Shown: positions 6,877 through 30,956 of the stretch, one piece after another
How the letters are laid out: every line of letters starts with the position of its first letter
Numbering within the stretch: the stretch's first letter is position 1
NCBI GenBank assembly: GCA_965219345.1
Contig: OZ244732.1
Coordinates: 64,001-128,000 of the forward strand
From: Nitrosopumilus sp.
GTDB taxonomy: Archaea; Thermoproteota; Nitrososphaeria; Nitrososphaerales; Nitrosopumilaceae
Length of the DNA stretch: 64,000 nt
Direction of reading: 5' to 3'
Translations under genes and position numbers: made by a program
Notes under the pieces: generated by a model
Seen by the model: only the letters and a program-made list of their open reading frames with translations
Database searches by the model: none
Told to the model about the DNA's origin: nothing

Positions 6877-6884
6877 CAATTGTT
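6877..6884. repeat. 8-bp direct repeat CAATTGTT, left copy (putative target-site duplication)
   Basis: Identical to 29089-29096. Abuts the GGTTCTCCC terminus. Confidence 0.85.
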
Positions 6885-6944
6885 GGTTCTCCCATACGAA
6901 ATCGTCTCTTATCCTACTGCGGGCCATTCTCAGTGTGCTTTGCT

Positions 6945-8033
6945 GAATCAGGACATTTCTGATTTGTCTTGCATCTTCTTATACTTTCTTTGCGTCAGCT
7001 CATGATTCTGTGTGCGGTATTCTTCCATGTTTGTTAGCATGTACCAATTATCTCAGGCATCTGCCTTGCAGCAGCTGCAGCTGCTGCAGCTGCTATCCTT
7101 GCCTTTTGTTTTCCTCTCCTTTTTGCAATTCTCAAGTAAAATGATTCCATCCTTGGATCAAATCGTATCGTAGTATTTGCAGCCTCCTCTACCTTGCATT
7201 GCGCAACCATGCAGAACCCCGTTTTGTTATTCCGCCTCCTTTTTGTGTTTTCCAGTCCCTGTGCGATGGTGCAAGTCCCGCATGAGACGAGTTTCTCTGC
7301 TGTTGCAAATCCGTTAATGTCAACTATCTCTGAGATTATTGTCAGTGCCGTGACATAACTTATTCCAGGGATTGTCATGACTAACCTTGTTCTTTCATCC
7401 TCGTTGCTAATTGTAGCAATTTTTGTCTCAAATGTGCCAATCTGTTTTTGATTCATATTGATATTTTCAAGATATGCATCCATTGCCATCCTGTCAACTT
7501 CGGTCAGATTGATTTCATGCAGCCATCCGTTCCTTTCTGTGAGAAGGTCTTTATTGTCGGTTGGGTGTAATCGTATTTTGCAAGTATTGCATAAATCATG
7601 TTTTTGTGTTTTGAGACACTTTGTACACGATTCAGTCTTGTTCTTGCCAGACTGCGCAGGTCCCGGTAGTATTTTTCTGGCACAAATGACTCATACACCA
7701 TCATGTCCGATCTTAGCAGGTCCGCCAATACGTCTGAATCAAGCTTGTCGTTTTTGAGTTTTGCCTGTGCTATTATTTGGTCTTTGCAGGGTGTGCAAGA
7801 ACGGTGTCAATGCCGTTATCCTCTAATGTGTCATGCAGTCTAATCCAATAGTTGGCAGTTGATTCACACACTGCCTGTATGTCTTTACCATATGTCTTTT
7901 TGATGTGTTTGATAAAACCCATTATTCCATGTGTGGTGTTCTCAAAGCTTGACTGTTCTAGCTTTTTTCTAGTATCTTTTTTTATTGTTGCAACGCAGTT
8001 TTTCTTATGAACGTCAATTCCCATGCTGATCAT
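6945..8033 (-). pseudogene. IS110 (DEDD) transposase pseudogene with several frameshifts
   Basis: Split across ORFs 7773-8084, 7504-7728 and 7034-7489. ATG at 8033 is preceded by AGGAGGTGA. The 3' end is approximate. Confidence 0.88.
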
Positions 8034-8217
8034 GTTATCACCTCCTTTCTGATCAAATTGCCTGATAAAGCGGAATGCTCCCATTTACCATCATCATCTG
8101 TGTGTGGTATTTTGTTTTCCGCTCGCTTTGAGTCAGTCTGTCAAACGCCCTTGTACATGGCAGTAACCCTTCGACTCTCAGGCCCAATAGTAACAATACA
8201 TCACAGGATATAGAAAA
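8034..8217 (-). ncRNA. Candidate IS110 bridge-RNA region (non-coding end upstream of the transposase)
   Basis: About 180-nt non-coding stretch between the subterminal inverted repeat and the transposase start, where IS110 bridge RNAs are encoded. Its structure was not computed. Confidence 0.4.
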
Positions 8218-8287
8218 GATTTCGTATAACGTCTGTCAACTTATCGTATCTTCTTCCAAGTGTTAACATACGTCGCTTTCTGAAAAA

Positions 8288-8362
8288 TGCGGGCAGCTGG
8301 ATTTGACCCCACGTCTTTCCATTCGCAGAAGAACATCTTAAACCAAGCTAGGCCATACCGGC
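8288..8362 (-). pseudogene. Degenerate tRNA gene (Gly-like acceptor end; anticodon loop CTGCGAA)
   Basis: The minus strand reads GCCGGTATGGCCTAGCTTGGTTTAAGATGTTCTTCTGCGAATGGAAAGACGTGGGGTCAAATCCAGCTGCCCGCA. It has tRNA length, a D-loop TGG and a T-loop-like GTCAAATCC, but mismatched stems. Confidence 0.6.
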
Positions 8363-8497
8363 AAAAATGAAAATTGCCCACATTCTGCGAATAGGCACTG
8401 CCATGCCCAATGAGAGGCGTTTGTCCTTACCGTGATTTATAATTACACGGGACGCAGGACAAAATGTGTCGGGACACGCTTGTTTTGTAAAAGTAAA

Positions 8498-8890
8498 TTA
8501 TAAAAAGTTATTACTCGAAATTTTTACTGATACTTGCATTTTGGATGATTGTTTTCCACTTGTTATCACCCCTGTCCTCAATTCCCGCCCTATCTGCCGG
8601 AGTATCGCCATCCAATCCGCGTGAGGTCCAATATAATTATGATATAACTTGATTCCCGTAATGGCTGGTGAATCATCTTTTTTTAATCCTCCAAAGATCT
8701 TCTCACGATCCCCGAACTCTCCGTTTAATCTTTCTTGGATATTGTTGTTTGCCACTTGATTTCTAAAATGAACTTCCTTGACATGTTTGCTTGGCTTGTG
8801 CAGAAAATTCTTTGGAGCATATTTTTTTTTTTTTTGAATGCATCGTTGTAAGCTGGCAATCCATCTGTGACAATAACTCCGGGAATACAT
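8498..8890 (-). pseudogene. DDE transposase C-terminal remnant (IS6/IS240-like)
   Basis: NNNIQERLNGEFGDREKIFGGLK...YHNYIGPH resembles the E-motif and YNxxRPH of IS6-type DDE enzymes. Disrupted at a T14 run (8822-8835). Confidence 0.65.
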
Positions 8891-9110
8891 GTTCCAAACA
8901 TAATGAATATGGCAGAGTCTACAAATGAATCAGTGATATTCCTTGGAGTATCAACTATGGGGCTGCCGGTAGGGGTGTATGTTTATCTCCGGCATTTAGC
9001 CTACAGGATACAAAAAAACAATCCTCCGTAACGATAAGATTCCAGACCAAAGACAGTGTCATGCGTGACGTAACCATACAGGCAAACGCGATTGCGGCTT
9101 TCTCAGTACC

Positions 9111-9284
9111 GTACATACACACGCACACACGCACACACGCACACACGCACACACGCACACACGCACACACGCACACACGCACACACGCACACACGCACAC
9201 ACGCACACACGCACACACGCACACACGCACACACGCACACACGCACACACGCACACACGCACACACGCACACACGCACGCGCAC
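9111..9284. repeat. (GCACACAC)~20 microsatellite; uninterrupted alternating purine-pyrimidine tract
   Basis: Read directly from the sequence. It abuts the stop codon of the giant gene. Confidence 0.95.
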
Positions 9285-12200
9285 TATCCGACTATTGATT
9301 CCGCCCAGCCGCGCTCCATCAATGGCTGTACCGAGCGGTCAAGGAGGCAGGCAAGATCATCTCTCAGGTTCTTGACCATCGTAAAGCCCGGCTTGCATTC
9401 CATGTCGCCTTCAGATGCGCTGCGACTACTACTGGACTGGGACTGGGACTTTTTTGACGTATCGGATGCGTCGTCATCGTCATCATCATATGTCTTCTCG
9501 CCAACGCACTGTTTTATGCTGATGCTTTCGTTTCTAATGTTGCTGTCCCGTCCCGCTATGTCCGCCAGCAGTATGCCAAGGTATGTCTCGGAAGGCCCCA
9601 TGTGGGATGTGAATACCTTGCTGCCGGGTATTCTTTCATCGGATAGGCTGGCCTCGGCCAGGCCGCCAATGGAGGTTCTGACGGATACCGACAGCGTAGA
9701 CGAGTCATCACCGGTTATTATTCTGACTAGGCCCGTCTCACAGTTCCATGAAACGCCGTAAAGCTCAATGTCGGACAGGGGCTCTCCGCTAGGACTGACG
9801 CCAGTACGGCCGCTGCTACCGCCACCACCGCCACCACCGCCGCCGCCACCGCCGCCGCTTCTGCCGCTCTTTTCGGGCTTTCTTTCCGGTTCAGGTCTTG
9901 GATCCTCCGTATCATCCACAACGGGCGGTGCAATGTTGTTTGTAACCAGATCTGCCGCAAAGCTGGCAAGCGAGTTTGGCTGTGGGAATAGCGTAAATGG
10001 TTCGGGCAGCGCGTATTGGTATATGGCAGTGTTGTTACTGCCTACGACAAACATCTGCATTCCGTCAGCAGAGAAGGCTATGCCTAACGGGAAGATGTCT
10101 TGTGGAACTACTGAAAAAGAGCCGGCAAAGGTGGCAGTGGATACGGTAAAGGGGGCGGTTAGCGCGTACTCGTATACGGCATTATCATTGGAATCTACGA
10201 CAAACATCCTTGTTCCGTTGGCAGAGAAGGCCAGGCCTGCCGGGGATGATACCTGCGATGCCACTGAGAAGGAGCTGTCAAAGGTGACAGCTGCAGACAG
10301 GTCAAACGGCACGGTTAGCGCGTACTCGTATACGGCATTATCATTGGAATCTACGACAAACATCCTTGTTCCGTTGGCAGAGAAGGCCAGGCCTGCCGGG
10401 GATGATACCTGCGATGCCACTGAGAAGGAGCTGTCAAAGGTGACAGCTGCAGACAGGTCAAACGGCACGGTTAGCGCGTACTCGTATACGTTTTGATTAC
10501 TATCACCCAGAACAAACATCCTGGTACCGTTGGCAGAGAAGGCCAGGTCTACTGGAATCGTGTCCCGTGGCACTGAGGAAGAGTTGGTAAAGGTGGCGGA
10601 AGATACGTCAAAGGGGGGGGTTAGCGCGTACTCGTATACGTTTTGATCATCACCATCCAGAACAAACATCTTGGTACCGTTAGCAGAGAAGGCCAGGCCT
10701 GATAGGAGTGTGTCTTGTAAGGACACGGAGAAGGAGCCAACAAGGAAGGCAGAAGCGGCAGGAATGTCATCTATGCTGCCCGTGGTTTTGGCGTATGCCA
10801 GATGGATGACATCGTCATGATCAAGCGTATCGTTAAGGGTAAGGGTGACCGTGTCTGCGGCGGCCGTGATTGCAGTTACGGTTGGGTCTGCGGATATGGT
10901 GCCGGATAGCGCAAAGTCTCCGGGTGCCGCACCGTTTATTGTGACGTCTTCGGACAGTACGACGTCAATTGTCGATGTGCTGGTAGTTGCAATGGAGGAC
11001 ACGATTGGCGGCGCGTCATCGGTTGTGCCGGTAAAGGTCTGGCTCGCTGCCGGGTTTGATGCGGTGTCTATCACGGTGCCAAGTGAATCGGTGTAGGTTA
11101 TATCCGGAGTATCGGATGTGTCGGTGATGCCGGAGACGGCAAGGGTTATGGCGTTACCCGAGCCTGCGGGATTGGTGTTTGCTGTCACCGTTCCGGTGGA
11201 AAGGGTGAATCCTTCGCCGTTTGTGGTTGTGACGTCTATGTTCTCGCTGTACGTCAGGGTTATGCTGGTAGCCGAGGTCACGGCAGCTGCGGTGATTGTT
11301 GGCGGAATAGTATCTGGCAGCGCCGTGGTGCCGGCAAAGGTCTGGCTCGCTGCCGGGTTTGATGCGGTGTCAACCACGGTGCCAAGCGAATCGTCATAGG
11401 TTATAGATGGAGCATCGGATGCCGTGATGCCGGAGACGGTAAGCGTTATGGTGTTGCCCGAACTTGCGGGATCGGTGTTTGCCGTCACCGTTCCTCCGGT
11501 GGTGGAAAGGGTGAATCCTTGGCCGTCTGTGGTTGTGACGTCTATGTTCTCGCTGTACGTCAGGGTTATGCTGGTAGCCGAGGTCACGGCAGCTGCGGTG
11601 ATTTCCGGTGGAATAGTATCTGGCAGCGCCGTGGTGCCGGCAAAGGTCTGGTCTTCTGCCTGGTTTGATGCGGTGTCAACCACGGTGCCAAGCGAATCGT
11701 CATAGGTTATAGATGGAGCATCGGATGCCGTGATGCCGGAGACGGTAAGCGTTATGGTGTCGTCCGAACCGGCGGGATCGGTGTTTGCCGTCACTTCCCC
11801 GTCAGAGAGAGCAAATCCTGCGCCGTTTGTGGTTGTGACGTCTATGTTCTCGCTGTACGTCAGGACTATGCTGATAGCCGAGGTCACGGCAGCTGCGGTG
11901 ATTTCCGGTGGAATAGTATCTGGCGGCGCCGTGGTGCCGGTAAAGGTCTGGCTCGCTGCCGGGTTTGATGCGCTGTCTGTCACGGTGCCATCAGACTCGG
12001 TGTAAATCACGTTTGGAGCATCGGATGCTGTGATGCCGGAGACGGTAAGCGTTATGGTGTCGTCCGAACCGGCGGGATCGGTGTTTGCCGTCACTTCCCC
12101 GTCAGAGAGAGCAAATCCTGCGCCGTTTGTGGTTGTGACGTCTATGTTCTCGCTGTACGTCAGGACTATGCTGATAGCCGAGGTCACGGCAGCTGCGGTG

Positions 12201-15200
12201 ATTTCCGGTGGAATAGTATCTGGCAGCGCCGTGGTGCCGGCAAAGGTCTGGCTCGCTGCCGGGTTTGATGCGGTGTCAACCACGGTGCCAAGCGAATCGT
12301 CATAGGTTATAGATGGAGCATCGGATGCCGTGATGCCGGAGACGGTAAGCGTTATGGTGTTGCCCGAACTTGCGGGATCGGTGTTTGCCGTCACCGTTCC
12401 TCCGGTGGTGGAAAGGGTGAATCCTTGGCCGTCTGTGGTTGTGACGTCTATGTTCTCGCTGTACGTCAGGGTTATGCTGGTAGCCGAGGTCACGGCAGCT
12501 GCGGTGATTTCCGGTGGAATAGTATCTGGCAGCGAACGTGGTGCCGGCAAAGGTCTGGTCTTCTGCCTGGTTTGATGCGGTGTCAACCACGGTGCCAAGC
12601 GAATCGTCATAGGTTATAGATGGAGCATCGGATGCCGTGATGCCGGAGACGGTAAGCGTTATGGTGTCGTCCGAACCGGCGGGATCGGTGTTTGCCGTCA
12701 CTTCCCCGTCAGAGAGAGCAAATCCTGCGCCGTTTGTGGTTGTGACGTCTATGTTCTCGCTGTACGTCAGGACTATGCTGATAGCCGAGGTCACGGCAGC
12801 TGCGGTGATTTCCGGTGGAATAGTATCTGGCGGCGCCGTGGTGCCGGTAAAGGTCTGGCTCGCTGCCGGGTTTGATGCGCTGTCTGTCACGGTGCCATCA
12901 GACTCGGTGTAAATCACGTTTGGAGCATCGGATGCTGTGATGCCGGAGACGGTAAGCGTTATGGTGTCGTCCGAACCGGCGGGATCGGTGTTTGCCGTCA
13001 CTTCCCCGTCAGAGAGAGCAAATCCTGCGCCGTTTGTGGTTGTGACGTCTATGTTCTCGCTGTACGTCAGGACTATGCTGATAGCCGAGGTCACGGCAGC
13101 TGCGGTGATTTCCGGTGGAATAGTATCTGGCAGCGCCGTGGTGCCGGCAAAGGTCTGGCTCGCTGCCGGGTTTGATGCGGTGTCAACCACGGTGCCAAGC
13201 GAATCGTCATAGGTTATAGATGGAGCATCGGATGCCGTGATGCCGGAGACGGTAAGCGTTATGGTGTTGCCCGAACTTGCGGGATCGGTGTTTGCCGTCA
13301 CCGTTCCTCCGGTGGTGGAAAGGGTGAATCCTTGGCCGTCTGTGGTTGTGACGTCTATGTTCTCGCTGTACGTCAGGGTTATGCTGGTAGCCGAGGTCAC
13401 GGCAGCTGCGGTGATTTCCGGTGGAATAGTATCTGGCAGCGCCGTGGTGCCGGCAAAGGTCTGGTCTTCTGCCTGGTTTGATGCGGTGTCAACCACGGTG
13501 CCAAGCGAATCGTCATAGGTTATAGATGGAGCATCGGATGCCGTGAGATGCCGGATGCCGTGATGCCGGAGACGGTAAGCGTTATGGTGTCGTCCGAACC
13601 GGCGGGATCGGTGTTTGCCGTCACTTCCCCGTCAGAGAGAGCAAATCCTGCGCCGTTTGTGGTTGTGACGTCTATGTTCTCGCTGTACGTCAGGACTATG
13701 CTGATAGCCGAGGTCACGGCAGCTGCGGTGATTTCCGGTGGAATAGTATCTGGCGGCGCCGTGGTGCCGGTAAAGGTCTGGCTCGCTGCCGGGTTTGATG
13801 CGCTGTCTGTCACGGTGCCATCAGACTCGGTGTAAATCACGTTTGGAGCATCGGATGCTGTGATGCCGGAGACGGTAAGCGTTATGGTGTCGTCCGAACC
13901 GGCGGGATCGGTGTTTGCCGTCACTTCCCCGTCAGAGAGAGCAAATCCTGCGCCGTTTGTGGTTGTGACGTCTATGTTCTCGCTGTACGTCAGGACTATG
14001 CTGATAGCCGAGGTCACGGCAGCTGCGGTGATTTCCGGTGGAATAGTATCTGGCAGCGCCGTGGTGCCAGCAAAGGTCTGGCTCGCTGCCGGGTTTGATG
14101 CGGTGTCAACCACGGTGCCAAGCGAATCGTCATAGGTTATAGATGGAGTATCGGATGCCGTGATGCCGGAGACGGTAAGCGTTATGGTGTTGCCCGAACT
14201 TGCGGGATCGGTGTTTGCCGTCACCGTTCCTCCGGTGGTGGAAAGGGTGAATCCTTGGCCGTCTGTGGTTGTGACGTCTATGTTCTCGCTGTACGTCAGG
14301 GTTATGCTGGTAGCCGAGGTCACGGCAGCTGCGGTGATTTCCGGTGGGGTGGTATCTATTGGGGGATCAATTTCATCGGATGATGGTGCAATGTTGTTTG
14401 TGACCAACCTTGCATCAAAGCTGGCCAGTGAGTTTGGCTGCGTGGATAACGTAAATGGTTTGGGCAGTGTGTACTCGTTTACGTCACCATCAGCACCACC
14501 TACAACGAACATCTTTATTCCGTCACCAGAGAAGGCCAGGCCTGATGGGAATGTGTCTTGTGACACAGAGAAAGAGCCGGCATAGGTGACATTGGATACG
14601 TCAAAGGGGGCGGTTAGCGCGTACTCGTATACGGCATCGTTATAATTGCCTGTGACAAACATCCTTGTTCCGTCATTAGAGAAGGCCAAACCCTGTGGGA
14701 ATGTGTCTTGTGAGGATACTGGGAAGGAGTTGGTAAAGGAGACATTGGATATGTCAAAGGAGATGGCTAGTGTGTACTCGTATACGGCATCACTCTTAAG
14801 ATCTAGAACAAACATCCTTGTTCCGTCATCAGAGAAGGCCAGGCCTGATGGGAATGTGACTTGTGAGGATACTGAGATGAAGCGCCTTATGTCGGCAGTA
14901 GACAAGTCAAATGGGGTGGTTAGCGCGTACTCGTATACGGCATCGTCACCATCACCTACAGCGAACATCTTTGTTCCGTCATCAGAGAAGGCCAGGCCTG
15001 ATGGGAGCATGTCGTCAAAATACAGTAAGAAAGAGTTGGCAAAGGAGGAAGTCGATACGTCAAAGGGAGCGGATAATTCGTACTCGTATGCTGTAGCAGT
15101 AATACTGTCGGTGACAAACATCCTTGTTCCGTCATTGGAGAAGGCCAGGTCTGATGGATACGTTCCTTGTGAAGCCACCGAGAAAGAGTTGGTAAAGGAT

Positions 15201-21200: not shown

Positions 21201-24200
21201 ATGGAGTTGGCAAGGGTGGCATCGGATATGTCAAATGGGGCGGTTAGCGTGTACTCGTTTACGGCATTTCCACTAAGATCTAGAACAAACATCTTTGTTC
21301 CGTTATTGGAGAAGGCCAGGCCTGATGGATACGTTCCTTGTGAAGCCACTGAGAGGGAGTTGGTAAAGGACGTGAGAGCAAGAATGTCATCTATGCTGCC
21401 CGTGTCTTTGGCGTATGTCAGATTGATGTCATCATTACTATCAAGCATATCACTGAGGGCAAGGGTGACCGTGTCGGCAGCGGCCGTGATTCCAGTTACG
21501 ACCAAGTTTGTGGATATGGTGCCGGACAGCGCAAAGTCTTCGGGTGCCGCACCGTTTATTTCGACGTCTTCGGACAGCACGACGTCAATTGTTGATGCAC
21601 TGGAAGTTTCGATAGAAGATACGGTTGGCGGCGCGTCATCTACTGTACGGTCAAAGGTCTGGTCCTCTGCCTGGTTTGATGCGCCGTCTGCCACGGTGCC
21701 ATCAGATTCGATATAAGTCACATCCGGAGTATCGGATGTGTTGGTAATGCCGGAGACCGTAAGGGTTATGGTGTCGTCCGAACCTTCGGGATCGGTGTTT
21801 GCCGTCACCGCTCCCCCGTCAGAGAGGTCAAATCCTGCGCCGTCCGTGGCGCTGACGTCAACGTTCTCGCTGTACGTCAGGACTATGCTGGTAGTCGAGG
21901 TCACGGCAGCTGCGGTAATTGTTGGGGCAACGGTATCTGGTGGAATGTTGTTTTTGACCGGATCTGCCGCAAAGCTGGCAAGCGAGTTTGGCTGTGGTAA
22001 CAAGTTAAATGGTTTGGGCAGCACGTACTCGTTTATGTCATCGTTAAAATCACCCAAGACAAACATCCTTGTTCCGTTGCCAGAGAAGGCCAAGCCTGAT
22101 GGGGATCTGTCTTGTGAGGCCACTGGGAAAGAGTTGGCAAGGGTGACATTGGATACGTCAAATGGGGCGGCCAGCGTGTACTCGTTTACGGCATCGTTAA
22201 AATTACCTACAACGAACATCCTTGTTCCGTCGCCAGAGAAGGCCAGGTCTAGTGGGAGTGTGTCTTCTGATGCCACTGAGAAAGAGCCGACAAAGGAGGA
22301 AGTCGATACGTCAAAGGGGGCGGTTAGCGCGTACTCGTTTACGGCATCGCCAAGATCACCTACAACAAACATCTTTGTTCCGTTGTTGGAGAAGGCCAGG
22401 CCTGATGGGAATACGTCTTGTGAATCCACTGAGAAAGAGTCCACAAAGATGACATTGGATATGTCAAATGGGGCGGCCAGTATGTACTCGTTTACGTCAT
22501 TGCCTTCATCGCCTAGGACAAACATCCTAGTTCCGTCGCCAGAGAAGGCCAGACCTTGTGGGAGTGTGTCTTGTGAACCTACTGAGAAAGTGTTGACAAG
22601 GGTGACATTGGATACGTCAAATGGGGTGGATAGCGCGTACTCGTTTACGGCATCTCTATCAAGATCTAGAACAAACATCTTTTTTCCGTCAGCGGAGAAG
22701 GCCAGGCCTGATAGATCCGTTCCTTGTGGAGCCACTGAGAAGGAGCTGGCAAAGAATGAAAGAAGAATGTCATCTATGCTGCCCGTGGTTTTGGCGTATG
22801 CCAGATTGATGTCATCATTATTATCAAGTGTATCACTGAGGGCAAGGGTGACCGTGTCGGCAAGGATGGGGGTGATTCCAGTCACGGTCGGGTTTGTGGA
22901 TATGGTGCCGGACAGCGCAAAGTCTCCGGGTGCTACAGAGCTGACTGTAACGTTTTCGGACAGTACGACGTTAATTGTCGATGTGCTGGAAGTTTCGATA
23001 GAAGATACGGTTGGCGGCGCGTCATCTACTGTACGGTCAAAGGTCTGGTCTGCCGCCTGGTTTGATGCACTGTCTTCCACGGTGCCATCAGATTCGATAT
23101 AAGTCACATTCGGAGTATCGGATGTGTTGGTAATGCCGGAGACCGTAAGGGTTATGGTGTCGTCCGAACCTTCGGGATCGGTGTTTGCCGTCACTGCTCC
23201 CCCGTCAGAGAGGCCAAATCCTGCGCCGTCCGTGGTGTTGACGTCAACGTTCTCGCTGTACGTCAGGACTATGCTGGTAGCCGAGGTCACGGCAGCTGCG
23301 GTAATTGCTGGGGCATCGGTATCCGGCGGAATGTTGTTTGCAACCGGGGTTGCCACAAAGCTGGCAAGCGAGTTTGGCTGTGTGGATAACGTAAATGGTT
23401 CGGGCAGTGTGTACTCGTTTATGTCAACGCCATCATCACCTGAAACAAACATCTTTGTTCCGTCGCCAGAGAAGGCCAGGCCTGATGGGAATGCGTCTTG
23501 TGAGGATACTGAGAAGGAGTTGGCAGAGGTGACATTGGATATGTCAAAGGGGGCGGTTAGCGCGTACTCGTTTAATTTACTGTTAAAATTATCTAGAACA
23601 AACATCCTTGTTCCGTCATTGGAGAAGGCCAGACCTCGTGGGAATATGTCTTCTGAAGATACTGGGAAGGAGCCGGCAGAGGTGGCAGTAGACAAGTCAA
23701 AGGGGGCTGTCAGCGCGTACTCGCTTACAGCATAGTCACTAGCATCTACGACAAACATCTTTGTTCCGTTAGCAGAGAAGGCCAGGCCTGACGGGGCTGT
23801 TACTTGCGATGTTACTGAGAAAAAGCCGGCAGAGGTGGCAGCAGACAAGTCAAATGGGGCGGTTAGCGCGTACTCGTATACGTTTTGACTATCATCATCT
23901 AGAACAAACATCTTTTTTCCGTCACCAGAGAAGGCCAGGTCTACTGGAAGCGTGTCCTGTGGCACTGAGAAAGGGGCGGCATAGGTGGCGGAAGATACGT
24001 CAAATGGGGCGGCCAGCGTGTACTCGTATACGGCATCGTCACCATCACTTAGAACAAACATCTTTGTTCCGTCGTTGGAGAAGGCCAGGCCTGATGGAGC
24101 TAGGCCTTCTGAATCCACTGAGAAAGAGTCGACAAAGGATGCAGAAGCAGTAGAGATGTCATCTATGCTGCCCGTGTTTCTGGTGTATGCCAGGTTGATG

Positions 24201-27200
24201 TCATCATCATCATCAAGTGTGCCGCTAAGGGTGAGGATAAGCGTGTTTGTAGGTGTGGCAACTGGATTAATGATATTATCACATTCTGGCGTAGCAAAAC
24301 AAAGGGTGGGGATAAGCGTGTTTGTAGGTGTGGCAACAGCAGCAGCATTGATAATTCCAGTTACGACCGGGTTTGCAAATATGGTGCCAGACAGCACAAA
24401 GTCTCCTGGTGCCGCAGAGCTGACTGTAACGTTTTCGGACAGTATGACGTGAATTGTCGATGTGCCGACAGTACCAACGGAGGACACGGTTGGCGGCGCG
24501 TTATCGACTGTGCGGTCAAAGGTCTGGTCTGCCGCCTGGTTTGATGCACTGTCTTCCACGGTGCCAAGCGAATCGTCATAGGTTATAGATGGAGTATAGG
24601 ATGTGTCGGTAATGCCGGAGACGGTAAGGGTTATGGTGTCGTCTGAACCGGCGGGATCGGTGTTTGCCGTCACCGCTCCCCCGTCAGAGAGGCCAAATCC
24701 TGCGCCGTCCGTGGTGTTGACGTCAACGTTCTCGCTGTACGTCAGGACTATCTCGGTAAGGGAGGTCACGGCAGCCGCGGTGATCTCTGGCGGAACGGTA
24801 TCCGGCAGCGGGGTGGTGCCGGTAAAGGTCTGGCTCGCTGCAGGGTTTGATGCGCCGTCTGTCACGGAGCCATCAGACTCGGTGTAAATCACGTTTGGAG
24901 CATCGGATGCGGTGATGCCGGAGACGGTAAGTGTTATGGTGTTGCCCGAATTGTCGGGATCAGTATTTGCCGACACCGTTCCTCCGACAGATAGGGTGAA
25001 TCCTTCGCCGTTTGTGGTTGTGACGTCTATGTTCTCGCTGTACGTCAGGACTATCTCGGTAAGGGAGGTCACGGCAGCTGCGGTGATTGTTGGCGGGGCG
25101 GTGTCTGATGGAATGTTGTTTGTGACCAACATTGCCGCAAAGCTGGCAAGGGAGTTTGGCTGTTGGAATAGCGTAAATGGTTCAGATAGCGCGTACTGGT
25201 GTACGTTCTTGCTGTTATCACCCAAGACAAATATCCTCGTTCCGTCAGCAGAGAAGGCCAGGCCTGTCGGGGATTGGTCTTGTGAGGATACTGAGAAGGA
25301 GTTGGCAGAGGTGGCAGTGGACACGTCAAAGGGGGCGGTTAGTGCGTACTCGTATACGGCACCGTTATAACCACCCACAACAAACATCTTTGTTCCGTCA
25401 CCAGAGAAGGCCAGGCCTCGCGGGAGTATGTCTTCTGATGCCACGGAGAAAGAGTCGACAAAGGTGACATCCGATGTGCCGGCGACATTCGATACGTCAA
25501 AGGGGGCGGTTAGCGTGTACTCGTATACGGCACCGCTAAGATCACCTATAACGAACATCCTAGTTCCGTCGCCAGAGAAGGCCAGGTCTGCCGGTAATGT
25601 GTCTTGTGAGGATACTGAGAAAGAGTTAGCAGAGGTGGCAGTGGACACGTCAAAGGGGGTGGTTAGTGCGTACTCGTTTATGTTATTGTCGAAACTACCC
25701 ACAACAAACATCTTTGTTCCGTCAGCAGAGAAGGCCAGGCCTCGCGGGACTGTGTCTTGTGATGCCACTGAGAAAGAGTCGACAAAGGTAGCAGTGGACA
25801 CGTCAAAGGCGGCGGATAGTGTGTACTGGTGTACGGCATCGTTATCGCTACTAATACCAGTACTCACTACAAACATCCTTGTTCCGTCATTAGAGAAGGC
25901 CATGCCGGTTGATTCCGAGTCTTGTAGATCTACTGGGAAGGAGCTGAGAAGGGGCGGAAGAGGGATGTCATCTATGCTGCCCGTGTTTCTGGTGTATGCC
26001 AGGCTGATGGCATCATTGCTGTCAAGCGTATCGTCAAGGGCAAGGGCTACCGTGTTGTTTGTAACAGCGGTGATTCCGGTCACGGCCGGGTCTGTGGATA
26101 TGGTGCCGGACAGCGCAAAGTCTTCCGGTGCAGCACCGTTTATTGTGACGTTTTCGGACAGCACGATGTTAATTGTTGATGTGCTGGCAGTTGCAATGGA
26201 GGACACGGTTGGAGGCGCGTCATCGGTTGTGCCGGTAAAGGTCTGGCTTGCTGCCGAGGTTGATGCGGTGTCTGTCACGGTGCCGGATTCCGCAGAGTAG
26301 GTTATATCCGGCCTGTCGGATGTGTTGGTGATGCCGGAGACCGTAAGTGTTATGGTGTCTGCCGCACCGGCGGGATCAGAGTTTCCCGTCACTTCCCCGA
26401 CGGAGAGGGTGAATCCCGTGCCGTCTGTGGTTGTGACGTCTATGTTCTCGCTGTACGTCAGGACTATGCTGATAGCCGAGGTCACGGCAGCTGCGGTGAT
26501 TTCCGGTGGAACGGTATCCGGCAGCGGGGTGGTGCCGGTAAAGGTCTGGTCTTCTGCAGGGTTTGATGCGCCGTCTGTCACGGAGCCATCAGACTCGGTG
26601 TAAATCACGTTTGGAGCATCAGATTCGGTGATGCCGGAGACGGTAAGGGTTATGGTGTTGCCCGAACCGGCGGGATCGGTGTTTGCCGACACTGTTCCGG
26701 TGGAAAGGGTGAATCCTGCGCCGTTTATGGTTGTGACGTCTATGTTCTCGCTGTACGTCAGGACTATCTCGGTAAGGGAGGTCACGGTAGCTGCGGTGAT
26801 TGTTGGCGGGGTGGTGTCTGATGGAATGTTGTTTGTGACTGACATTGCCGCAAAGCTGGCAAGGGAGTTTGGCTGCTGGAATAGCGTAAATGGTTCAGAT
26901 AGCGCGTACTGGTGTACGTTCTCGCCGGAATTACCCAAGACAAATATCCTCGTTCCGTCAGCAGAGAAGGCCAGATCTGCCGGGGCTGTGTCTTGTGATC
27001 TCACTGGGAAAGAGTCGACAAAGGAGGCAGTGGACACGTCAAAGGGGGTGGTTAGTGTGTACTCGTTTATGTCATCGTCGAAACCACCTACGACAAACAT
27101 CTTTGTTCCGTCAGCAGAGAGGGCCAGGCCTCGCGGGAATATGTCTTGTGATGCCACTGGGAAAGAGTCGACAAAGGAGGCAGTGGACACGTCAAAGGGG

Positions 27201-28279
27201 GTGGTTAGTGTGTACTCGTTTATGTCATTGCCGGCATCGCCTACGACAAACATCTTTGTTCCGTCAGTAGAGAAGGCCAGGCCTCGCGGGGCTGTGTCTT
27301 GTGATGCCACTGGGAAAGAGTCGACAAAGGAGGCAGTGGACACGTCAAAGGCGGCGGATAGTGTGTACTCGTTTATGTCATTGCCGGCATCGCCTACGAC
27401 AAACATCTTTGTTCCGTCAGCAGAGAAGGCCAGGCCTCGCGGTATTCCGTCTTGTGATGCCACTGGGAAAGAGTCGACAAAGGAGGCAGTAGATACGTCA
27501 AAGGCGGTAGTTAGCGCGTACTGGTTTACGGCATCGTTATCGCCACTACCAGTACCCACTACAAACATCCTTGTTCCGTCATTAGAGAAGGCCAGGCCGG
27601 TTGGTTCCGAGTCTTGTAGACCTACTGGGAAGGAGCCGTCAAGGGGCGGAAGAGGGATGTCATCTATGCTGCCCGTGGTCTTGGTGTATGCCAGGAGGAT
27701 GGCATCATTGCTGTCAAGCGTATCGTCAAGGGCAAGGGCTACCGTGTTGTTTGTAACAGCGGTGATTCCGGTCACGGCCGGGTCTGTGGATATGGTGCTG
27801 GACAGCACAAAGTCTTCCGGTGCAGCATCGTTTATTGTGACGTTCTCGGACAGTACGATGTCAATTGCCGACATGTTGGAAGTTGCAATGGAGAACACGA
27901 TTGGCGGCGCGTCATCGGTTGTACCGGTAAAGGTCTGGTCTGCTGCCAGGTTGAACGCCGTACCTAACAAAGAGTCAGGTAAAGAGGTGTAGATTATATC
28001 CGGCCTGTCGGATGTTGTGATGCCGGAGACGGTAAGCGTTATGGTGTCTGCCGAACCTCCGGGATCGGTGTTTGCCGACACTTGCCCGACGGAGAGGGCG
28101 AATCCTGCGCCGTCCATGCTGTTGGCGTCTATGTTCTCGCTGTACGTCAGGACTATCTCGGTAGCCGAGGTTACAGAAGCTGCGATGATTGTCGGGTGCT
28201 CCGCCGCATGTGCCGGAACAATGGACAAAGAGGCCAACATCAGCGTGGAAATTAAAATAACAAAGGAAATTCTCTCCAT
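9284..28279 (-). CDS. Giant repetitive secreted/surface protein (about 6,300 aa): signal peptide, SwmB/Ig-like repeats, ten 5-repeat beta-propeller cassettes, Gly linker and thaumarchaeal C-terminal C...C...ERGW domain; interrupted by two frameshifts
   Basis: ORFs 13520-28297, 12300-13496 and 9284-12610 continue the same repeat series. The signal peptide is [25 protein letters not shown] (ATG at 28279). Repeats are GLAFSxDGTxMFV and [11 protein letters not shown]...LTYSEN...ITLTVSG. Confidence 0.88.
11270..14345. repeat. Near-identical tandem array with ~300-bp units and a ~906-bp higher-order period
   Basis: Equivalent positions fall at 11424, 12330, 13237 and 14160 (spacings 906, 907, 923). 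Confidence 0.9.
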
Positions 28280-28290
28280 CTCTTTATTTT

Positions 28291-28312
28291 CACACACACC
28301 CCCCCCCCCCCC
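28291..28312. repeat. (CA)4 plus C14 homopolymer (poly-G on the coding strand) about 20 bp upstream of the giant gene start
   Basis: cacacacacc cccccccccc cc, read directly from the sequence. Confidence 0.9.
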
Positions 28313-28342
28313 GTTATTCTGTTGATGCTCACAAAAAATGGT

Positions 28343-28454
28343 AGTTAATGCTCATATATATAAAATTCCAGCTGACAGGGTTGCCCCAAAGCATGCAACC
28401 TTCACATGACTATGCCAAGTTAATGCTCATATATATAAAATTCCAGCTGACAGG
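28343..28454 (-). promoter_or_regulatory. Perfect 37-bp direct repeat containing a TATA-box-like TTTTATATATAT; putative duplicated promoter of the giant gene
   Basis: AGTTAATGCTCATATATATAAAATTCCAGCTGACAGG occurs at 28343-28379 and 28418-28454. Confidence 0.6.
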
Positions 28455-28455
28455 A

Positions 28456-29088
28456 CTGCATGGAAATCAATCTGACCGAAGTTGACAGGATGGCAATGGA
28501 TGCATATCTTGAAAATATCAATATGAATCAAAAACAGACTGGCACATTTGAGACAAAAATTGCTACAATTAGCAACGAGGATGAAAGAACAAGGTTAGTC
28601 ATGACAATCCCTGGAATAAGTTATGTCACGGCACTGACAATAATCTCAGAGATAGTTGACATTAACGGATTTGCAACAGCAGAGAAACTCGTCTCATATG
28701 CGGGACTTGCACCATCGCACAGGGACAGTGGGGAAAACACAAAAAGGAGGCGGAATAACAAAACGGGGTTCTGCATGGTTGCGCAATGCAAGGTAGAGGA
28801 GGCTGCAAATACTACGATACGATTTGATCCAAAGATGGAATCATTTTACTTGAGAATTGCAAAAAGGAGAGGAAAACAAAAGGCAAGGATAGCAACAGCT
28901 GCTGCAAGGCAGATGCCTGAGATAATTGGTACATGCTAACAAACATGGAAGAATACCGCACACAGAATCATGAGCTGACGCAAAGAAAGTATAAGAAGAT
29001 GCAAGACAAATCAGAGATGTCCTGATTCAGCAAAGCACACTGAGAATGGCCCGCAGTAGGATAAGAGACGATTTCGTATGGGAGAACC
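28456..29088 (+). mobile_element. Truncated IS110 copy (3' half), inverted relative to the left copy
   Basis: Near-identical reverse complement of 6885-7522. Encodes SYAGLAPSHRDSG and is frameshifted. Confidence 0.92.
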
Positions 29089-29096
29089 CAATTGTT
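29089..29096. repeat. 8-bp direct repeat CAATTGTT, right copy
   Basis: Immediately follows the GGGAGAACC terminus. Confidence 0.85.
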
Positions 29097-29133
29097 CAAT
29101 ATCTTTATAAGCAAATTATGCCTATATTTAACC

Positions 29134-29256
29134 ATGTCTGAGATGGTTTGGAAATGTTTTAGATGTAATCTATCATTTAAGGACAAAAATTTGGCCGAAA
29201 TGCATAGAGAAATTTCAAGTCATTCAGTTACAAAAGTCAAGACACTAGTTGCATAA
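29134..29256 (+). CDS. 40-aa C2H2-like zinc-finger microprotein (not in the ORF track)
   Basis: Translates as MSEMVWKCFRCNLSFKDKNLAEMHREISSHSVTKVKTLVA. TTTATAA lies about 25 bp upstream. Confidence 0.7.
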   Translation: MSEMVWKCFRCNLSFKDKNLAEMHREISSHSVTKVKTLVA

Positions 29257-29300
29257 TTATTAAAAAATTTTTGAACACTTTAGTTTTGATAAAAAGCTAA

Positions 29301-29401
29301 TGCAGAGGGTGGGATTCGAACCCACGAACTCCTAAGAGAAGGGATTTCCTATTTTGAGGATCTTGAGTCCCTCTCGGTTGACCGGGCTTCGATACCTCTG
29401 C
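29301..29401 (-). tRNA. tRNA-Leu(CAA) with a 16-nt intron at position 37/38 (29346-29361)
   Basis: GCAGAGG/CCTCTGCA acceptor, AGGGA-CTCAAG[intron]A-TCCCT anticodon arm, long variable arm and GGTTCGAATCC T-loop. Confidence 0.93.
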
Positions 29402-29837: not shown

Positions 29838-29918
29838 ATCTAAATATTCACAGAATAAATTTTATTTTTCTATATTCTCTAATCATACTAAATCTCTTTA
29901 GAAAATTTATCAAAAAAA

Positions 29919-30956
29919 TTATCGTCTAGATTTCTTTTTAGCTGCTTTCTTCTTTGCTGGTCTCTTTTTAGCTGCTTTCTTCTTTGCTGGTCTCTTTTTA
30001 GCTGCTTTCTTCTTTGCTGGTCTCTTTTTAGCTGCTTTCTTCTTTGCTGGTCTCTTTTTAGCTGCTTTCTTCTTTGCTGGTCTCTTTTTAGCTGCTTTCT
30101 TCTTTGCTGGTCTCTTTTTAGCTGCTTTCTTCTTTGCTGGTCTCTTTTTAGCTGCTTTCTTCTTTGCTGGTCTCTTTTTAGCTGCTTTCTTCTTTGCTGG
30201 TCTCTTTTTAGCTGCTTTCTTCTTTGCTGGTCTCTTTTTAGCTGCTTTCTTCTTTGCTGCAGCACGTTTCTTTGCAGCTGCAACTCTTTTAGCTGCTGCT
30301 CTTTTAGCTGCTTTACGTCTCTTCGCTAAAAGTTCTTGAAATTTTCCAGATACTTTTTCTAATGCTCTTTTAGTAGAATCTTCTGCTTTAGTTCGTCTTT
30401 CTAATTCTTTTACAAACTTTTCAGCAGACTTATGACTAGTTGCCATAGTTTCACGTAAAGATGGTTTTGATTGAGATTGTTTTTGAATTTTTGAAGTGAT
30501 TTTTGATTTAAAATTAGAATATTGAGCAACATCATCTGAAATCTTTTTTGCAGTTTTTTGCCTGCTTTTAATCTCAGAAACTAATTCTTGAACACGGTCA
30601 TTTAAAGATCGTAATCTAGTCTCTGCGTTCTGTTTTTCTTCGGGACCTTCTGAGAACTCTATCTCTTGTTCAGCCTGTTCGATTGCTTCTTTTTCTCGTG
30701 TCAGTCGTTCCTCAGCTGCCGCCACTAGTCTTCCAATGCTTTCTAATTGAGAGGTTTTTCGGGTAAGGATTTCAGATGTATCAGAGACATCTTCACGTTC
30801 AGATTCTATTTTTCTATCTATAGAATTGAGGCCTGAAGAAGAACGCCTTTCAATAGAACGGGTTTCTTTGAGTTCTTTTTCAGCTCTTTTCCTAAGCTTT
30901 GTTGCGTCCTGTTTCTTTTGACGTAGTTGAACTACTAATCTTTCTAATGATGCCAC
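29919..30956 (-). CDS. Coiled-coil protein with histone H1-like Lys/Ala/Pro tail
   Basis: Long heptad region followed by (KKKAAKKRPA)n. Confidence 0.85.
   Translation of the reverse strand: MASLERLVVQLRQKKQDATKLRKRAEKELKETRSIERRSSSGLNSIDRKIESEREDVSDTSEILTRKTSQLESIGRLVAAAEERLTREKEAIEQAEQEIEFSEGPEEKQNAETRLRSLNDRVQELVSEIKSRQKTAKKISDDVAQYSNFKSKITSKIQKQSQSKPSLRETMATSHKSAEKFVKELERRTKAEDSTKRALEKVSGKFQELLAKRRKAAKRAAAKRVAAAKKRAAAKKKAAKKRPAKKKAAKKRPAKKKAAKKRPAKKKAAKKRPAKKKAAKKRPAKKKAAKKRPAKKKAAKKRPAKKKAAKKRPAKKKAAKKRPAKKKAAKKRPAKKKAAKKKSRR
29933..30259. repeat. Perfect 30-bp tandem repeat, about 10.6 copies
   Basis: The unit gctgctttcttctttgctggtctcttttta repeats identically. Confidence 0.97.

What the first reader, a model, noticed from the sequence alone, without database searches (positions are those of the whole stretch)
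6877..29096. 22.2-kb giant-adhesin cassette bounded by inverted dead IS110 ends and an exact 8-bp target-site duplication
Seen in the sequence: the left end reads CAATTGTT|GGTTCTCCCATACGAAATCG (6877/6885) and the right end reads CGATTTCGTATGGGAGAACC|CAATTGTT (29088/29096). The ends are about 630-bp inverted copies of the same IS110 3' end, both facing outward. Removing the unit restores a plausible intergenic region between two divergent host genes. Established knowledge: IS110 DEDD recombinases use bridge RNAs and normally leave no staggered-cut duplication, whereas GG-initiated inverted termini with 8-bp duplications are typical of DDE elements such as IS6. Inference: two identical IS110-derived ends were used as terminal inverted repeats to move a 19-kb surface-protein gene as one non-autonomous composite element, by an unusual mechanism, in an archaeon.
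Basis: partly seen in the sequence, partly recalled or inferred. Interest (0 to 1): 0.9.

Follow-up and report, generated by a model that had tools for sequence, protein, structure and literature searches.

The report
IS6 transposon with IS110-split ends
A 22-kb piece of DNA carrying a giant surface-protein gene really did jump into this archaeal chromosome, but it was most likely moved by an ordinary IS6-type transposase, and a second, RNA-guided insertion sequence later landed inside both of its ends.

Summary
CAATTGTT flanks a 22,204-bp unit (6885-29088). In 62 of 62 related Nitrosopumilaceae loci where both flanks were found, the site is empty with a single 8-mer, and in 3 of these it is exactly CAATTGTT. 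This is a true 8-bp target duplication.

The interpretation needs changing. The outermost 6 bp at each end (GGTTCT) are not IS110 sequence. They are the tips of IS6-family terminal inverted repeats (TIRs). Behind the full-length left IS110-family copy (6891-8234), the IS6 TIR continues (GTCAACTTATCG...), followed by an IS6 transposase remnant.

The same genome holds about 45 GGTTCTG-type TIRs. It also holds four roughly 3-kb IS6 elements that carry passenger genes and have exact 8-bp duplications.

The IS110/IS1111-like element inserts at GGTT-CT-GT of IS6 TIRs, in one orientation. Its 5' non-coding region folds into a bridge-RNA-like loop whose variable bases covary with the flanks.

Best reading (0.72): an IS6-family transposon carrying the giant gene inserted here. 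Both TIRs were then hit by the TIR-homing IS, as IS4321/IS5075 do to Tn21-family transposons, and a microhomology deletion truncated the right copy.

This is a new variant of known kinds, of moderate interest.

The parts
6877..6884 (.). Left copy of the 8-bp target-site duplication, CAATTGTT
   Evidence: Read directly. Related genomes have one 8-mer at this position.
6885..6890 (+). Tip (GGTTCT) of the left IS6-family terminal inverted repeat, cut off from the rest of the TIR by the IS110-family insertion
   Evidence: The same 6 bases start about 45 IS6-type TIRs in the genome. The first 4 vary with the insertion site in other genomes.
6891..8234 (-). IS110/IS1111-family element, copy A, full length (1344 bp; limits ambiguous by the 2-3 nt CT/TCT core). 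The transposase gene (7034-8084) is broken into 3 ORFs. Subterminal repeats are ATACGAAATC / GATTTCGTAT. The 5' non-coding region (8085-8234) holds the guide loop.
   Evidence: Pfam PF01548 and PF02371. Alignment with copies B and C. Junctions. Guide loop.
8235..8497 (+). Continuation of the left IS6 TIR (GTCAACTTATCGTATC...) and the IS6 subterminal region with the GTGTTAAC motif. It contains a sub-threshold tRNA-like stretch at 8288-8362 (-).
   Evidence: Alignment with intact IS6 ends at C1:1439742, 213036, 795114 and 929213. tRNA match 27.9 bits against a cut-off of 29.
8498..8905 (-). Remnant of the IS6-family (DDE_Tnp_IS240-type) transposase gene: the C-terminal part only, reading towards the left TIR
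   Evidence: tblastn gives 65-77% identity to residues 256-373 of the intact 381-aa paralogue at C1:211451-212593. That paralogue hits PF13610. The fragment alone gives no Pfam hit.
8906..9283 (.). Downstream region shared with paralogous giant-gene loci (8906-9110), then an 8-nt ACACACGC-type tandem array (9111-9283)
   Evidence: blastn against the genome; sequence read.
9284..28297 (-). Giant surface-protein gene (19,014 bp), the cargo. It has an N-terminal signal-like segment, about 100-aa Ig-like/SWM repeats and about 51-aa propeller-type repeats. It is read in three frames because of two frameshifts near 12610-12620 and 13520-13535.
   Evidence: ORFs; repeat families; Pfam PF13753 plus weak SGL/Kelch/Big_5 hits; frames.
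28298..28462 (-). Conserved 5' region of the giant-gene family: a G13 tract (poly-C on the + strand, 28300-28313), a TATA-like AT-rich box and a 37-bp internal duplication
   Evidence: Alignment with loci 2, 3 and 5; blastn.
28463..29082 (+). IS110/IS1111-family copy D: the 3' 620 bp only, joined to the giant gene's upstream region through a short shared stretch (GATTTC(C)ATGCA)
   Evidence: Pfam PF02371.
29083..29088 (-). Tip (GGTTCT on the - strand) of the right IS6-family TIR. The rest of this TIR has been deleted.
   Evidence: Read directly. Same position and orientation relative to the IS as at the left end.
29089..29096 (.). Right copy of the 8-bp target-site duplication, CAATTGTT
   Evidence: empty sites.

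Best explanation
The unit is an IS6-family transposon: a passenger-carrying 'tIS', or possibly a pseudo-compound transposon. Its layout is TIR - promoter - giant surface-protein gene - transposase - TIR.

Step 1. An IS6-type DDE transposase inserted it into the intergenic site and made the 8-bp duplication CAATTGTT. The duplication is shown. The enzyme is inferred from the ends, the duplication length and the resident elements.

Step 2. A site-specific IS110/IS1111-family element then inserted into each of the two TIRs. Its bridge/seek-RNA-like guide loop is programmed for GGTT-CT-GTCAA, positions 1-11 of these TIRs. It always inserts between the CT core and GT, and always with its 3' end facing outward. 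This leaves only the 6-bp TIR tip outside each copy and puts the two copies in inverted orientation. The position and orientation are shown. The order of events is inferred.

Step 3. A deletion between an internal site of the right IS copy and the giant gene's upstream region, across about 12 nt of microhomology, removed the 5' half of that copy and the rest of the right TIR. The junction is shown.

Step 4. Frameshifts in the IS110-type transposase and loss of the N-terminal two thirds of the IS6 transposase left the unit immobile.
For: (1) True insertion with an 8-bp duplication. 62 of 62 related loci with both flanks have one 8-mer, and 3 have exactly CAATTGTT (also 14-16).

(2) The IS6 TIR can be rebuilt across copy A. 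GGTTCT^GTCAACTTATCGTATCTTCTTCC..GTGTTAAC aligns with intact IS6 ends of the same genome. An IS6 transposase remnant follows, with its 3' end facing that TIR. The same arrangement is seen in 4 of 4 duplication-flanked IS6 elements.

(3) Resident IS6 elements make exactly this signature. Of 6667 GGTTCT...AGAACC pairs within 30 kb, 5 have an exact 8/8 flanking repeat (0.19 expected by chance). All 5 have TIRs matching at 19/20 or better, and one of the 5 is this unit. One such element, which carries a surface-protein gene, exists in two copies (94.9% identity over 2968 bp) with different flanks and different 8-bp duplications. The transposase hits PF13610.

(4) All 6 copies or fragments of this IS in the genome begin right after GGTTCT. 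The 3 full copies here and 2 in G094 are followed by GT[CG]AA[CG]TT.. (IS6 TIR positions 7 onward). In other genomes the 4 bases before the CT core vary with the site.

(5) A guide is present. The 5' non-coding region folds into a conserved stem (2 of its pairs show compensatory changes) around an internal loop whose two strands are the variable segments. The reverse complement of one strand equals core plus right flank. 6 of 12 copies match the 4 flank bases 4/4, using five different 4-mers. In G119a both strands change together with its different flanks (TGAATACT, 8/8).

(6) Precedent. IS4321/IS5075 insert into Tn21-family TIRs (passages of PMC8269217; the title of Partridge & Hall 2003, seen in the reference list of PMC11187229). 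R751 has a cryptic Tn501-like element with IS4321L and IS4321R (passage of PMC4245530).
Against: - The inner part of the right TIR is deleted, so only its 6-bp tip supports an IS6 end there.
- No copy of this cassette without the IS110-type insertions, and no donor copy, was found. The order 'transposition first, IS hits second' therefore rests on the expectation that a TIR split after base 6 cannot be used.
- Copies A and D share three derived indel/substitution clusters. This could mean a common origin rather than two independent hits. The pattern is mosaic, since A also shares derived deletions with B, so gene conversion is an alternative.
- The left guide strand (GGGTTACT) fits GGTTCT only with a one-base bulge or mismatch.
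- 6 of 12 copies do not match their flank perfectly at the right guide.
- Only copy A has an IS6 transposase within the 1.5-kb flanks examined (1 of 10 loci).
- Every IS110-type copy examined carries frameshifts (10 of 10), so current activity is not shown.
- IS6 elements are typically about 800 bp, and a 20-kb passenger is unprecedented for the family (passages of PMC7986276).
Confidence: 0.72

Rival explanations
1. The two TIRs, or the unit's ends, were already occupied by IS110-type copies when the unit moved. A resident IS6-type DDE transposase acting in trans would then have used ends made of the 6-bp GGTTCT tip followed by IS110 sequence.
For: - Both ends are identical for 20 bp and begin with the GGTTCT shared by all IS6 TIRs here.
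- With a 2-nt offset the IS110 end has some likeness to IS6 TIRs (..A.CG..ATCG; by eye).
- A similar arrangement, an IS110 copy in a TIR upstream of a paralogous giant gene, exists at locus 5 (copy C).
- A and D share three derived sequence clusters.
Against: - Position 7 and beyond differ from every IS6 TIR in the genome (G in all TIRs listed, C here).
- The true continuation of the TIR lies 1.35 kb inside.
- No other pair of this IS end has an 8-bp duplication. Only 1 of the 5 exact-duplication pairs involves it, and none was found for copies B, C, E or F within 30 kb.
- That DDE transposases need the inner TIR positions for binding is established knowledge, recalled and not tested here.
Confidence: 0.1
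2. The 8-bp duplication was made by a small IS6 element of 1-3 kb. The giant gene entered its interior later, by gene conversion or double crossover with one of the paralogous giant-gene loci that also sit next to IS6 ends.
For: - The genome has five paralogous giant-gene loci with conserved 5' and 3' flanks and mosaic similarity. The cassette's 5' end is 100% identical to locus 2, while its 3' end is closest to locus 3.
- IS6 TIRs lie upstream of loci 3 and 5.
- The junction between the downstream region and the transposase fragment is shared with locus 4.
Against: - It needs two crossovers inside one element while keeping both tips and the duplication.
- Single crossovers between dispersed IS6 copies would separate the two CAATTGTT copies.
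- An IS6 element with a surface-protein passenger demonstrably moved as a unit in this genome.
Confidence: 0.13
3. Assembly artefact: a foreign or misplaced G+C-rich contig was joined in through IS repeats.
For: - The unit is about 52% G+C in a 36% genome.
- It is flanked by multi-copy repeats.
- The giant gene contains 100%-identical 300-nt repeats and two frameshifts.
Against: - A misjoin would not create an exact 8-bp duplication of a site that is single in 62 relatives.
- Four other loci of the same genome carry the same G+C-rich gene family.
- Short contigs of runs X20 and X21 read without difference from 29060 to 29337, across the right junction. They have only 29 letters on the IS side, below the tool's 31-letter rule, and the runs are probably the source strain.
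Confidence: 0.03

Closest known systems
IS4321 / IS5075 (IS1111 group) in the 38-bp TIRs of Tn21-family transposons, including the cryptic Tn501-like element of plasmid R751 flanked by IS4321L and IS4321R
   Same: - A DEDD-type, site- and orientation-specific IS with subterminal inverted repeats inserts inside the TIR of a DDE transposon.
- When both TIRs are hit, the transposon looks as if it were bounded by two inverted IS copies.
- The transposon's own target duplication stays just outside.

Sources: passages of PMC8269217 and PMC4245530; the title of Partridge & Hall 2003 as cited in PMC11187229. That paper itself (PMC219399) is not held.
   Different: - The host transposon here is IS6-family (8-bp duplication, GGTTCTG.. 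TIR), not Tn3-family (5 bp; recalled).
- The host is an archaeon.
- The insertion point is after base 6 of the TIR.
- The right copy is truncated.
IS6/IS26 family insertion sequences, their pseudo-compound transposons, and the single reported IS6 tIS (ISDsp3)
   Same: A DDE_Tnp_IS240 transposase, short TIRs beginning GG, and 8-bp direct target repeats (passages of PMC7986276).
   Different: - Typical members are 700-890 bp, and their compound forms have directly repeated ISs (PMC7986276).
- Here the resident elements are about 3-kb single-transposase units with passenger genes and a SWIM-type N-terminal extension.
- This unit carries a 19-kb gene.
Bridge-RNA / seekRNA-guided IS110 and IS1111 elements (IS621, ISEc11, ISEc21)
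   Same: - DEDD plus Transposase_20 domains.
- No target duplication beyond the shared core.
- A non-coding region with two short segments that match the two strands of the target and overlap at the core.
- Natural reprogramming between relatives (passages of PMC11187229).
- ISEc21 likewise targets another IS, a conserved part of IS3-family transposase genes.
   Different: - Mixed features: 7-nt and 3-nt overhangs beyond the subterminal repeats, as in the IS1111 group, but the guide loop lies upstream of the transposase gene, as in the IS110 group.
- No Rfam family matched.
- No RNA or activity data.

Membership tests
IS6 (IS6/IS26) family transposon | DDE transposase of the IS240/IS26 type | tested here: met
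   The remnant at 8498-8905 is 65-77% identical to residues 256-373 of the genome's intact 381-aa protein. That protein hits PF13610 at E = 2.3e-14. The remnant alone gave no Pfam hit at E <= 0.01.
IS6 (IS6/IS26) family transposon | Short terminal inverted repeats beginning GG | tested here: met
   The left TIR, rebuilt across the IS110 copy (GGTTCT^GTCAACTTATCG..), matches resident IS6 TIRs. At the right end only the 6-bp tip survives.
IS6 (IS6/IS26) family transposon | 8-bp direct target repeats | tested here: met
   CAATTGTT at both sides. Single in 62 of 62 related loci.
IS6 (IS6/IS26) family transposon | Simple organisation of about 700-890 bp with one transposase gene | tested here: not met
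   22.2 kb with a 19-kb passenger. Resident relatives are 2.8-3.2 kb with passengers. This places it among passenger-carrying (tIS-like) or compound derivatives.
IS6 (IS6/IS26) family transposon | Replicative cointegrate mechanism | not testable with these tools
   No donor copy or cointegrate was found.
IS110 / IS1111 family (the two flanking copies) | DEDD (RuvC-like) N-terminal domain plus Transposase_20 C-terminal domain | tested here: met
   PF01548 (45.4 bits) and PF02371 in copy A; PF02371 (68.4 bits) in copy D.
IS110 / IS1111 family (the two flanking copies) | Site- and orientation-specific insertion with no duplication beyond a short core | tested here: met
   6 of 6 copies or fragments in the genome follow GGTTCT. 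Flanks of 5 full copies rebuild an uninterrupted IS6 TIR sharing only CT/TCT.
IS110 / IS1111 family (the two flanking copies) | IS1111 group: subterminal inverted repeats with 7 bp (left) and 3 bp (right) beyond them | tested here: met
   AGACGTT + ATACGAAATC ... GATTTCGTAT + GGG in transposase orientation. The criterion comes from a passage of PMC11187229.
IS110 / IS1111 family (the two flanking copies) | Non-coding region encoding a guide RNA with segments matching both target strands | tested here: met
   A conserved stem with an internal loop, in which the loop strands covary with the flanks. The loop lies upstream of the transposase gene (IS110-like). No RNA data, and no Rfam hit.
   The outermost 6 bp are not IS110 sequence. 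They vary with the insertion site in other genomes and are the tip of an IS6 TIR.

The most novel reading that the evidence does not exclude
The cassette moved after its IS6 TIRs had been split. A resident IS6-type transposase would then have mobilised a 22-kb unit whose functional ends were only a 6-bp TIR tip fused to IS110-family sequence. RNA-guided IS copies would have become surrogate transposon ends.

A less extreme novel reading is much more likely (about 0.6). Nitrosopumilus holds a family of passenger-carrying IS6 transposons that spread giant adhesin genes and restriction-modification genes. It also holds a bridge-RNA-type IS that homes specifically into their TIRs and disarms them.
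Probability: 0.1. Interest if true: 0.85.

Novelty: new variant of a known kind. Interest (0 to 1): 0.5.

Why it matters
The finding shows three things.

First, a DDE transposon moved a 19-kb giant surface-protein gene within a marine ammonia-oxidising archaeon. A 2019 survey of thaumarchaeal mobile elements stated that transposons with passenger genes had not been detected in archaea (passage of PMC6563490). The IS6 review lists a single passenger-carrying member (passage of PMC7986276).

Second, it gives a clean natural example of one mobile element homing into the ends of another in Archaea. The covariation between guide and target can be read directly from genomes.

Third, it is a caution for annotation. 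Two inverted IS copies plus a target duplication need not make a compound transposon of that IS.

Tried and rejected
- Looking for TIRs and duplications within 900 bp of nine IS6 transposase genes found nothing convincing, because the elements are larger than assumed. A first version of the script timed out. The genome-wide GGTTCT...AGAACC scan replaced it.

- Searching 120 genomes of the genus plus G000 for the IS6 end region 8225-8905 found only the transposase-coding part, at 68-77% identity, in 21 of the 120. No uninterrupted copy of this exact TIR region turned up.

- A guide in the 3' non-coding region: the longest match to the target is 6 nt, which 538 of 1000 shuffles reach. This idea was dropped. 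In the 5' region the 8-nt match was reached by 41 of 1000 shuffles, and it became convincing only through covariation.

- Rfam: no bridge-RNA or IS family matched. The only hit was a tRNA-like match below its cut-off.

- IS6 transposase next to other IS110-type copies: found in 1 of 10 loci, with only 1.5-kb flanks held. Uninformative.

- Ordering the events from sequence variants of copies A-D: the pattern is mosaic, so no order could be inferred.

- Reads: only Logan contigs of 4 runs were available.
  - Pieces across the right junction (29060-29337; X20, X21) and across the IS/promoter joint (28432-28492; X20, X21) have 29 and 30 letters on the shorter side. This is under the tool's 31-letter rule, so they are not counted as bridging.
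  - The loose ends match the flanks of the genome's other IS copies, so these runs are probably the source strain and not independent.
Nothing is concluded from them.

- Casposon or tRNA-integrating island: ARAGORN finds no tRNA gene in the unit. The duplication is 8 bp and the ends are IS6-like. Rejected.

PMC219399 (Partridge & Hall 2003) is not held, so only its title in reference lists was seen.

- Supplementary files were not consulted. IS tables in the supplements of PMC6563490 and PMC13343696 may list these elements.

- Claim of 'not in print': searches returned no paper describing an IS110/IS1111 element that targets IS6 TIRs, or an IS6 transposon with a giant gene in Thaumarchaeota. 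These were four keyword searches only.

Full report
OBSERVATION. The two junctions read exactly as reported: CAATTGTT|GGTTCTCCCATACGAAATCG at 6877/6885 and CGATTTCGTATGGGAGAACC|CAATTGTT at 29088/29089. The inverted repeat runs 6885-7516 against 28463-29088, and was found as three blocks of 198, 174 and 235 nt at 97-100%. Both arms encode parts of an IS110-family transposase (PF01548 and PF02371 on the left, PF02371 on the right). One correction: the left copy is a full-length element of about 1.35 kb with a frameshifted gene (ORFs 7034-7489, 7504-7728, 7773-8084). It aligns end to end with two other copies in the genome (C1:483775-485111 and 1485228-1486570, 97%). Only the right copy is a 3' fragment. 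The unit is 45-58% G+C in a 30-37% neighbourhood.

EMPTY SITE. The window is G000:C1:64001-128000 of a 1.91-Mb, two-contig genome. In relatives the left and right flanks are adjacent. In G007, G009, G011, G017 and G005, 'ggat' and 'caatatc' are separated by exactly 8 nt (CAATTATC, CAATCATA, CAATCATG, CAATGATG, CAATCATG). In a wider set of 80 loci from Nitrosopumilus and related records, 62 held both 20-nt flank motifs. 60 of them have an 8-nt gap. The other 2 were mis-anchored on the left, and on inspection also show one 8-mer before the right flank. Three loci (L067, L068, L071) carry exactly one CAATTGTT. The remaining 18 of the 80 lacked one motif within the fetched piece and were not scored. 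The alternative of a target preference fails. The flanks of the other copies of this IS end are unrelated (..ggtcaag..taactcg..ctgcaca..tttaaata).

WHAT THE ENDS ARE. The decisive point is what lies on the inner side of the left IS copy. Homology among the three full copies ends at ..GATTTCGTATAACGTCT, and is followed by GTCAACTTATCG (copy A), GTGAAGTTATGT (copy B) and GTCAACTTGATG (copy C). Joined to the outer GGTTCT, these give GGTTCTGTCAACTTATCG, GGTTCTGTGAAGTTAT.. and GGTTCTGTCAACTTGA... These are the terminal inverted repeats of the IS6-family elements of this genome. About 45 such ends are listed, among 58 pattern matches, some of which are clearly chance. The likeness extends into the subterminal region..TTCTTCC..GTGTTAAC in copy A against the ends at 1439742 and 213036, and copy C against 929213. 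Downstream of copy A, at 8498-8905 on the minus strand, lies the C-terminal third of an IS6-type transposase. It is 65-77% identical to residues 256-373 of an intact 381-aa paralogue, and that paralogue hits PF13610 DDE_Tnp_IS240 and has a SWIM-like N-terminus. The IS110-family element proper is therefore 6891-8234, and GGTTCT at 6885-6890 and 29083-29088 are TIR tips. Other genomes confirm that the tip belongs to the target. Relatives of the element are preceded by GGTTCT, GATTCT, GGTACT or AATACT. Only the CT is constant, and the IS itself starts CCCATACGAAATC.

RESIDENT IS6 ELEMENTS MAKE THIS SIGNATURE. Among 6667 GGTTCT...AGAACC pairs lying 0.3-30 kb apart, 5 have identical 8-mers outside, against 0.19 expected. 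All 5 have TIRs matching at 19/20 or better. They are this unit and four elements of 2.8-3.2 kb (401802-404769, 1007879-1010720, 1448345-1451300, 1729074-1732317). These carry one IS6 transposase gene, whose 3' end faces the nearer TIR, plus passengers: DNA methyltransferase or restriction-modification genes and, in one case, a 496-aa G+C-rich secreted-looking protein. That last element exists twice, at 94.9% identity over 2968 bp. Homology starts and stops at the TIR tips, the flanks are unrelated and the 8-bp duplications differ. IS6-type transposases of this genome therefore do move passenger-carrying units and do make 8-bp duplications. The cassette has the same layout: TIR, cargo, transposase reading outward, TIR.

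THE IS110-TYPE ELEMENT HOMES INTO IS6 TIRS. All 6 copies or fragments in the genome follow GGTTCT. The 5 full copies with GGTTCT tips (3 here, 2 in G094) continue with IS6 TIR positions 7 onward, always in the same orientation, with the transposase 3' end towards the tip. In transposase orientation the element has 7 nt (AGACGTT) before and 3 nt (GGG) after its 10-bp subterminal repeats. A passage of PMC11187229 gives this asymmetry for the IS1111 group. Its 5' non-coding region (8234 to 8085 in transposase sense), aligned over 12 copies from 5 genomes, folds into a conserved stem (GAGAGUCG / ..ACUGACUC; one pair is CG in 6 copies and UA in 5). The stem encloses an internal loop capped by a second stem (one pair GC in 9 and AU in 3). 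The two loop strands are the variable parts. The reverse complement of the 3' strand reads GTCT plus 4-6 nt that equal the IS end plus right flank. The 4 flank bases match 4/4 in 6 of 12 copies, using five different 4-mers (GTCA, GTGA, ATCA, ACTG, GTAA), and 3/4 in 3 more. The 5' strand reads GGGTTACT in this genome, which fits GGGTT-CT with one extra base. In G119a it reads GAATACT, which equals that copy's different left flank (TGAATACT, 8/8). This is the architecture described for bridge and seek RNAs: two short segments matching the two target strands and overlapping at the core (passages of PMC11187229). No Rfam family matched and there are no RNA data.

HISTORY.
- Shown: one insertion with an 8-bp duplication; IS6 TIR tips at both ends; an IS110-type copy at the same TIR position and orientation at both ends; the left TIR continuation and an IS6 transposase remnant.
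- Also shown: the right IS copy ends at an internal position (28463), where it joins the conserved upstream region of the giant gene through a stretch shared by both partners. Compare GATTGATTTCATGCAG in the IS with GATGATTTCCATGCAA upstream of loci 3 and 5.
- Inferred: the IS6 transposon inserted first, the two TIRs were then hit separately, and a deletion removed the 5' 0.7 kb of the right IS copy together with the inner right TIR.
- With about 45 TIR targets and 6 hits in this genome, two hits on one element are not unlikely (my estimate is roughly 0.3).
- Sequence variants of copies A-D are mosaic and do not settle the order.

RIVALS. Three were considered. (a) The unit moved with already split TIRs (0.10). 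(b) A small IS6 element made the duplication and the giant gene was imported later by conversion among the five paralogous loci (0.13). (c) Misassembly (0.03). Details are given under the rival explanations.

CARGO. The gene at 9284-28297 (minus strand) begins with a signal-like segment. It consists of about 100-aa Ig-like/SWM repeats (PF13753, E = 3e-21) alternating with blocks of about 51-aa propeller-type repeats (weak SGL, Kelch and PD40 hits). Two frameshifts near 12610-12620 and 13520-13535 split it into 4925 aa, about 300 aa and 1108 aa. They lie among 100%-identical 300-nt repeats and may be assembly errors. 'Adhesin' is a guess from this architecture, not a tested function. The family has five G+C-rich loci in the genome, with a conserved promoter region and 3' end.

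COMPARISON WITH WHAT IS KNOWN. The closest precedent is IS4321/IS5075, which insert into Tn21-family TIRs, and the R751 cryptic Tn501-like element that carries IS4321L and IS4321R (PMC8269217 and PMC4245530, passages). The 2003 paper itself was not available. The IS6 review (PMC7986276, passages) gives 8-bp repeats, a length of about 800 bp, compound forms with direct repeats and a single passenger-carrying member. A 2019 survey of thaumarchaeal mobile elements (PMC6563490, passages) says transposons with passenger genes had not been detected in archaea. A 2026 archaeal IS survey (PMC13343696, passages) does not use the words passenger, composite or nested. Four keyword searches found no description of an IS110/IS1111 element targeting IS6 TIRs. 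I therefore rate this a new variant of known kinds. The mechanisms are known, but the combination, the host lineage and the 19-kb cargo are new.

LIMITS. There are no long reads. The read evidence is short contigs, probably from the source strain. The organism name rests on record titles of relatives (Nitrosopumilus spp.), not on the window's own record.

Noticed in passing
window 8085-8234 (- strand); L038, L040, L044, L052, L053, L057, L061, L064: The 5' non-coding region of the IS110/IS1111-like element forms a conserved stem and internal loop. The two loop strands covary with the flanking target, including copies in G119 and G128 that sit in different targets (natural reprogramming). The element mixes IS1111-type ends (7 and 3 nt beyond the subterminal repeats) with an IS110-type upstream guide.
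   Followed up: partly
G000 C1:401802-404769, 1007879-1010720, 1033406-1036785, 1448345-1451300, 1729074-1732317: IS6-family elements of 2.8-3.4 kb carry passenger genes: DNA methyltransferases, a restriction-modification-like pair, an HNH-like protein and a secreted G+C-rich protein. Four have exact 8-bp duplications. The transposases have a SWIM-type zinc-finger N-terminus.
   Followed up: partly
window 28300-28313, and C1:201598-, 908815-, 1487803-: A G tract of 10 to 15 (13 in the window) sits between a TATA-like box and the start codon of each of four giant-gene paralogues, and its length differs between loci. This could be a slippage-prone switch.
   Followed up: no
window 8288-8362 (-): A tRNA-like stretch inside the IS6 subterminal region scores 27.9 bits against the Rfam tRNA cut-off of 29. 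ARAGORN does not call it.
   Followed up: no
window 9111-9283: About 21 tandem copies of an 8-nt ACACACGC-type unit lie directly downstream of the giant gene. Weaker matches to this region were found near C1:185912-185983.
   Followed up: no
window 12400-13700: Two frameshifts in the giant gene fall among 300-nt repeats that are 100% identical (11722-12021 = 12629-12928 = 13552-13851). The spacings are off by 7 and 17 nt. They are either real pseudogenisation or assembly slips.
   Followed up: partly
window 29873-30322 (gene 29919-30956, - strand): A neighbouring host gene contains 15/30-nt tandem repeats that encode a long AAKKRPAKKK lysine-rich tail. The repeat number differs between related genomes, judging from the repeated hits.
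   Followed up: no
G000 C1:210833-210868 and 1278582-1278680: Solo fragments of 36 bp and 99 bp of the IS110-type 3' end sit directly behind a GGTTCT tip. The first lies 0.6 kb from an intact IS6 transposase gene. They look like remains of further TIR hits followed by deletion.
   Followed up: partly
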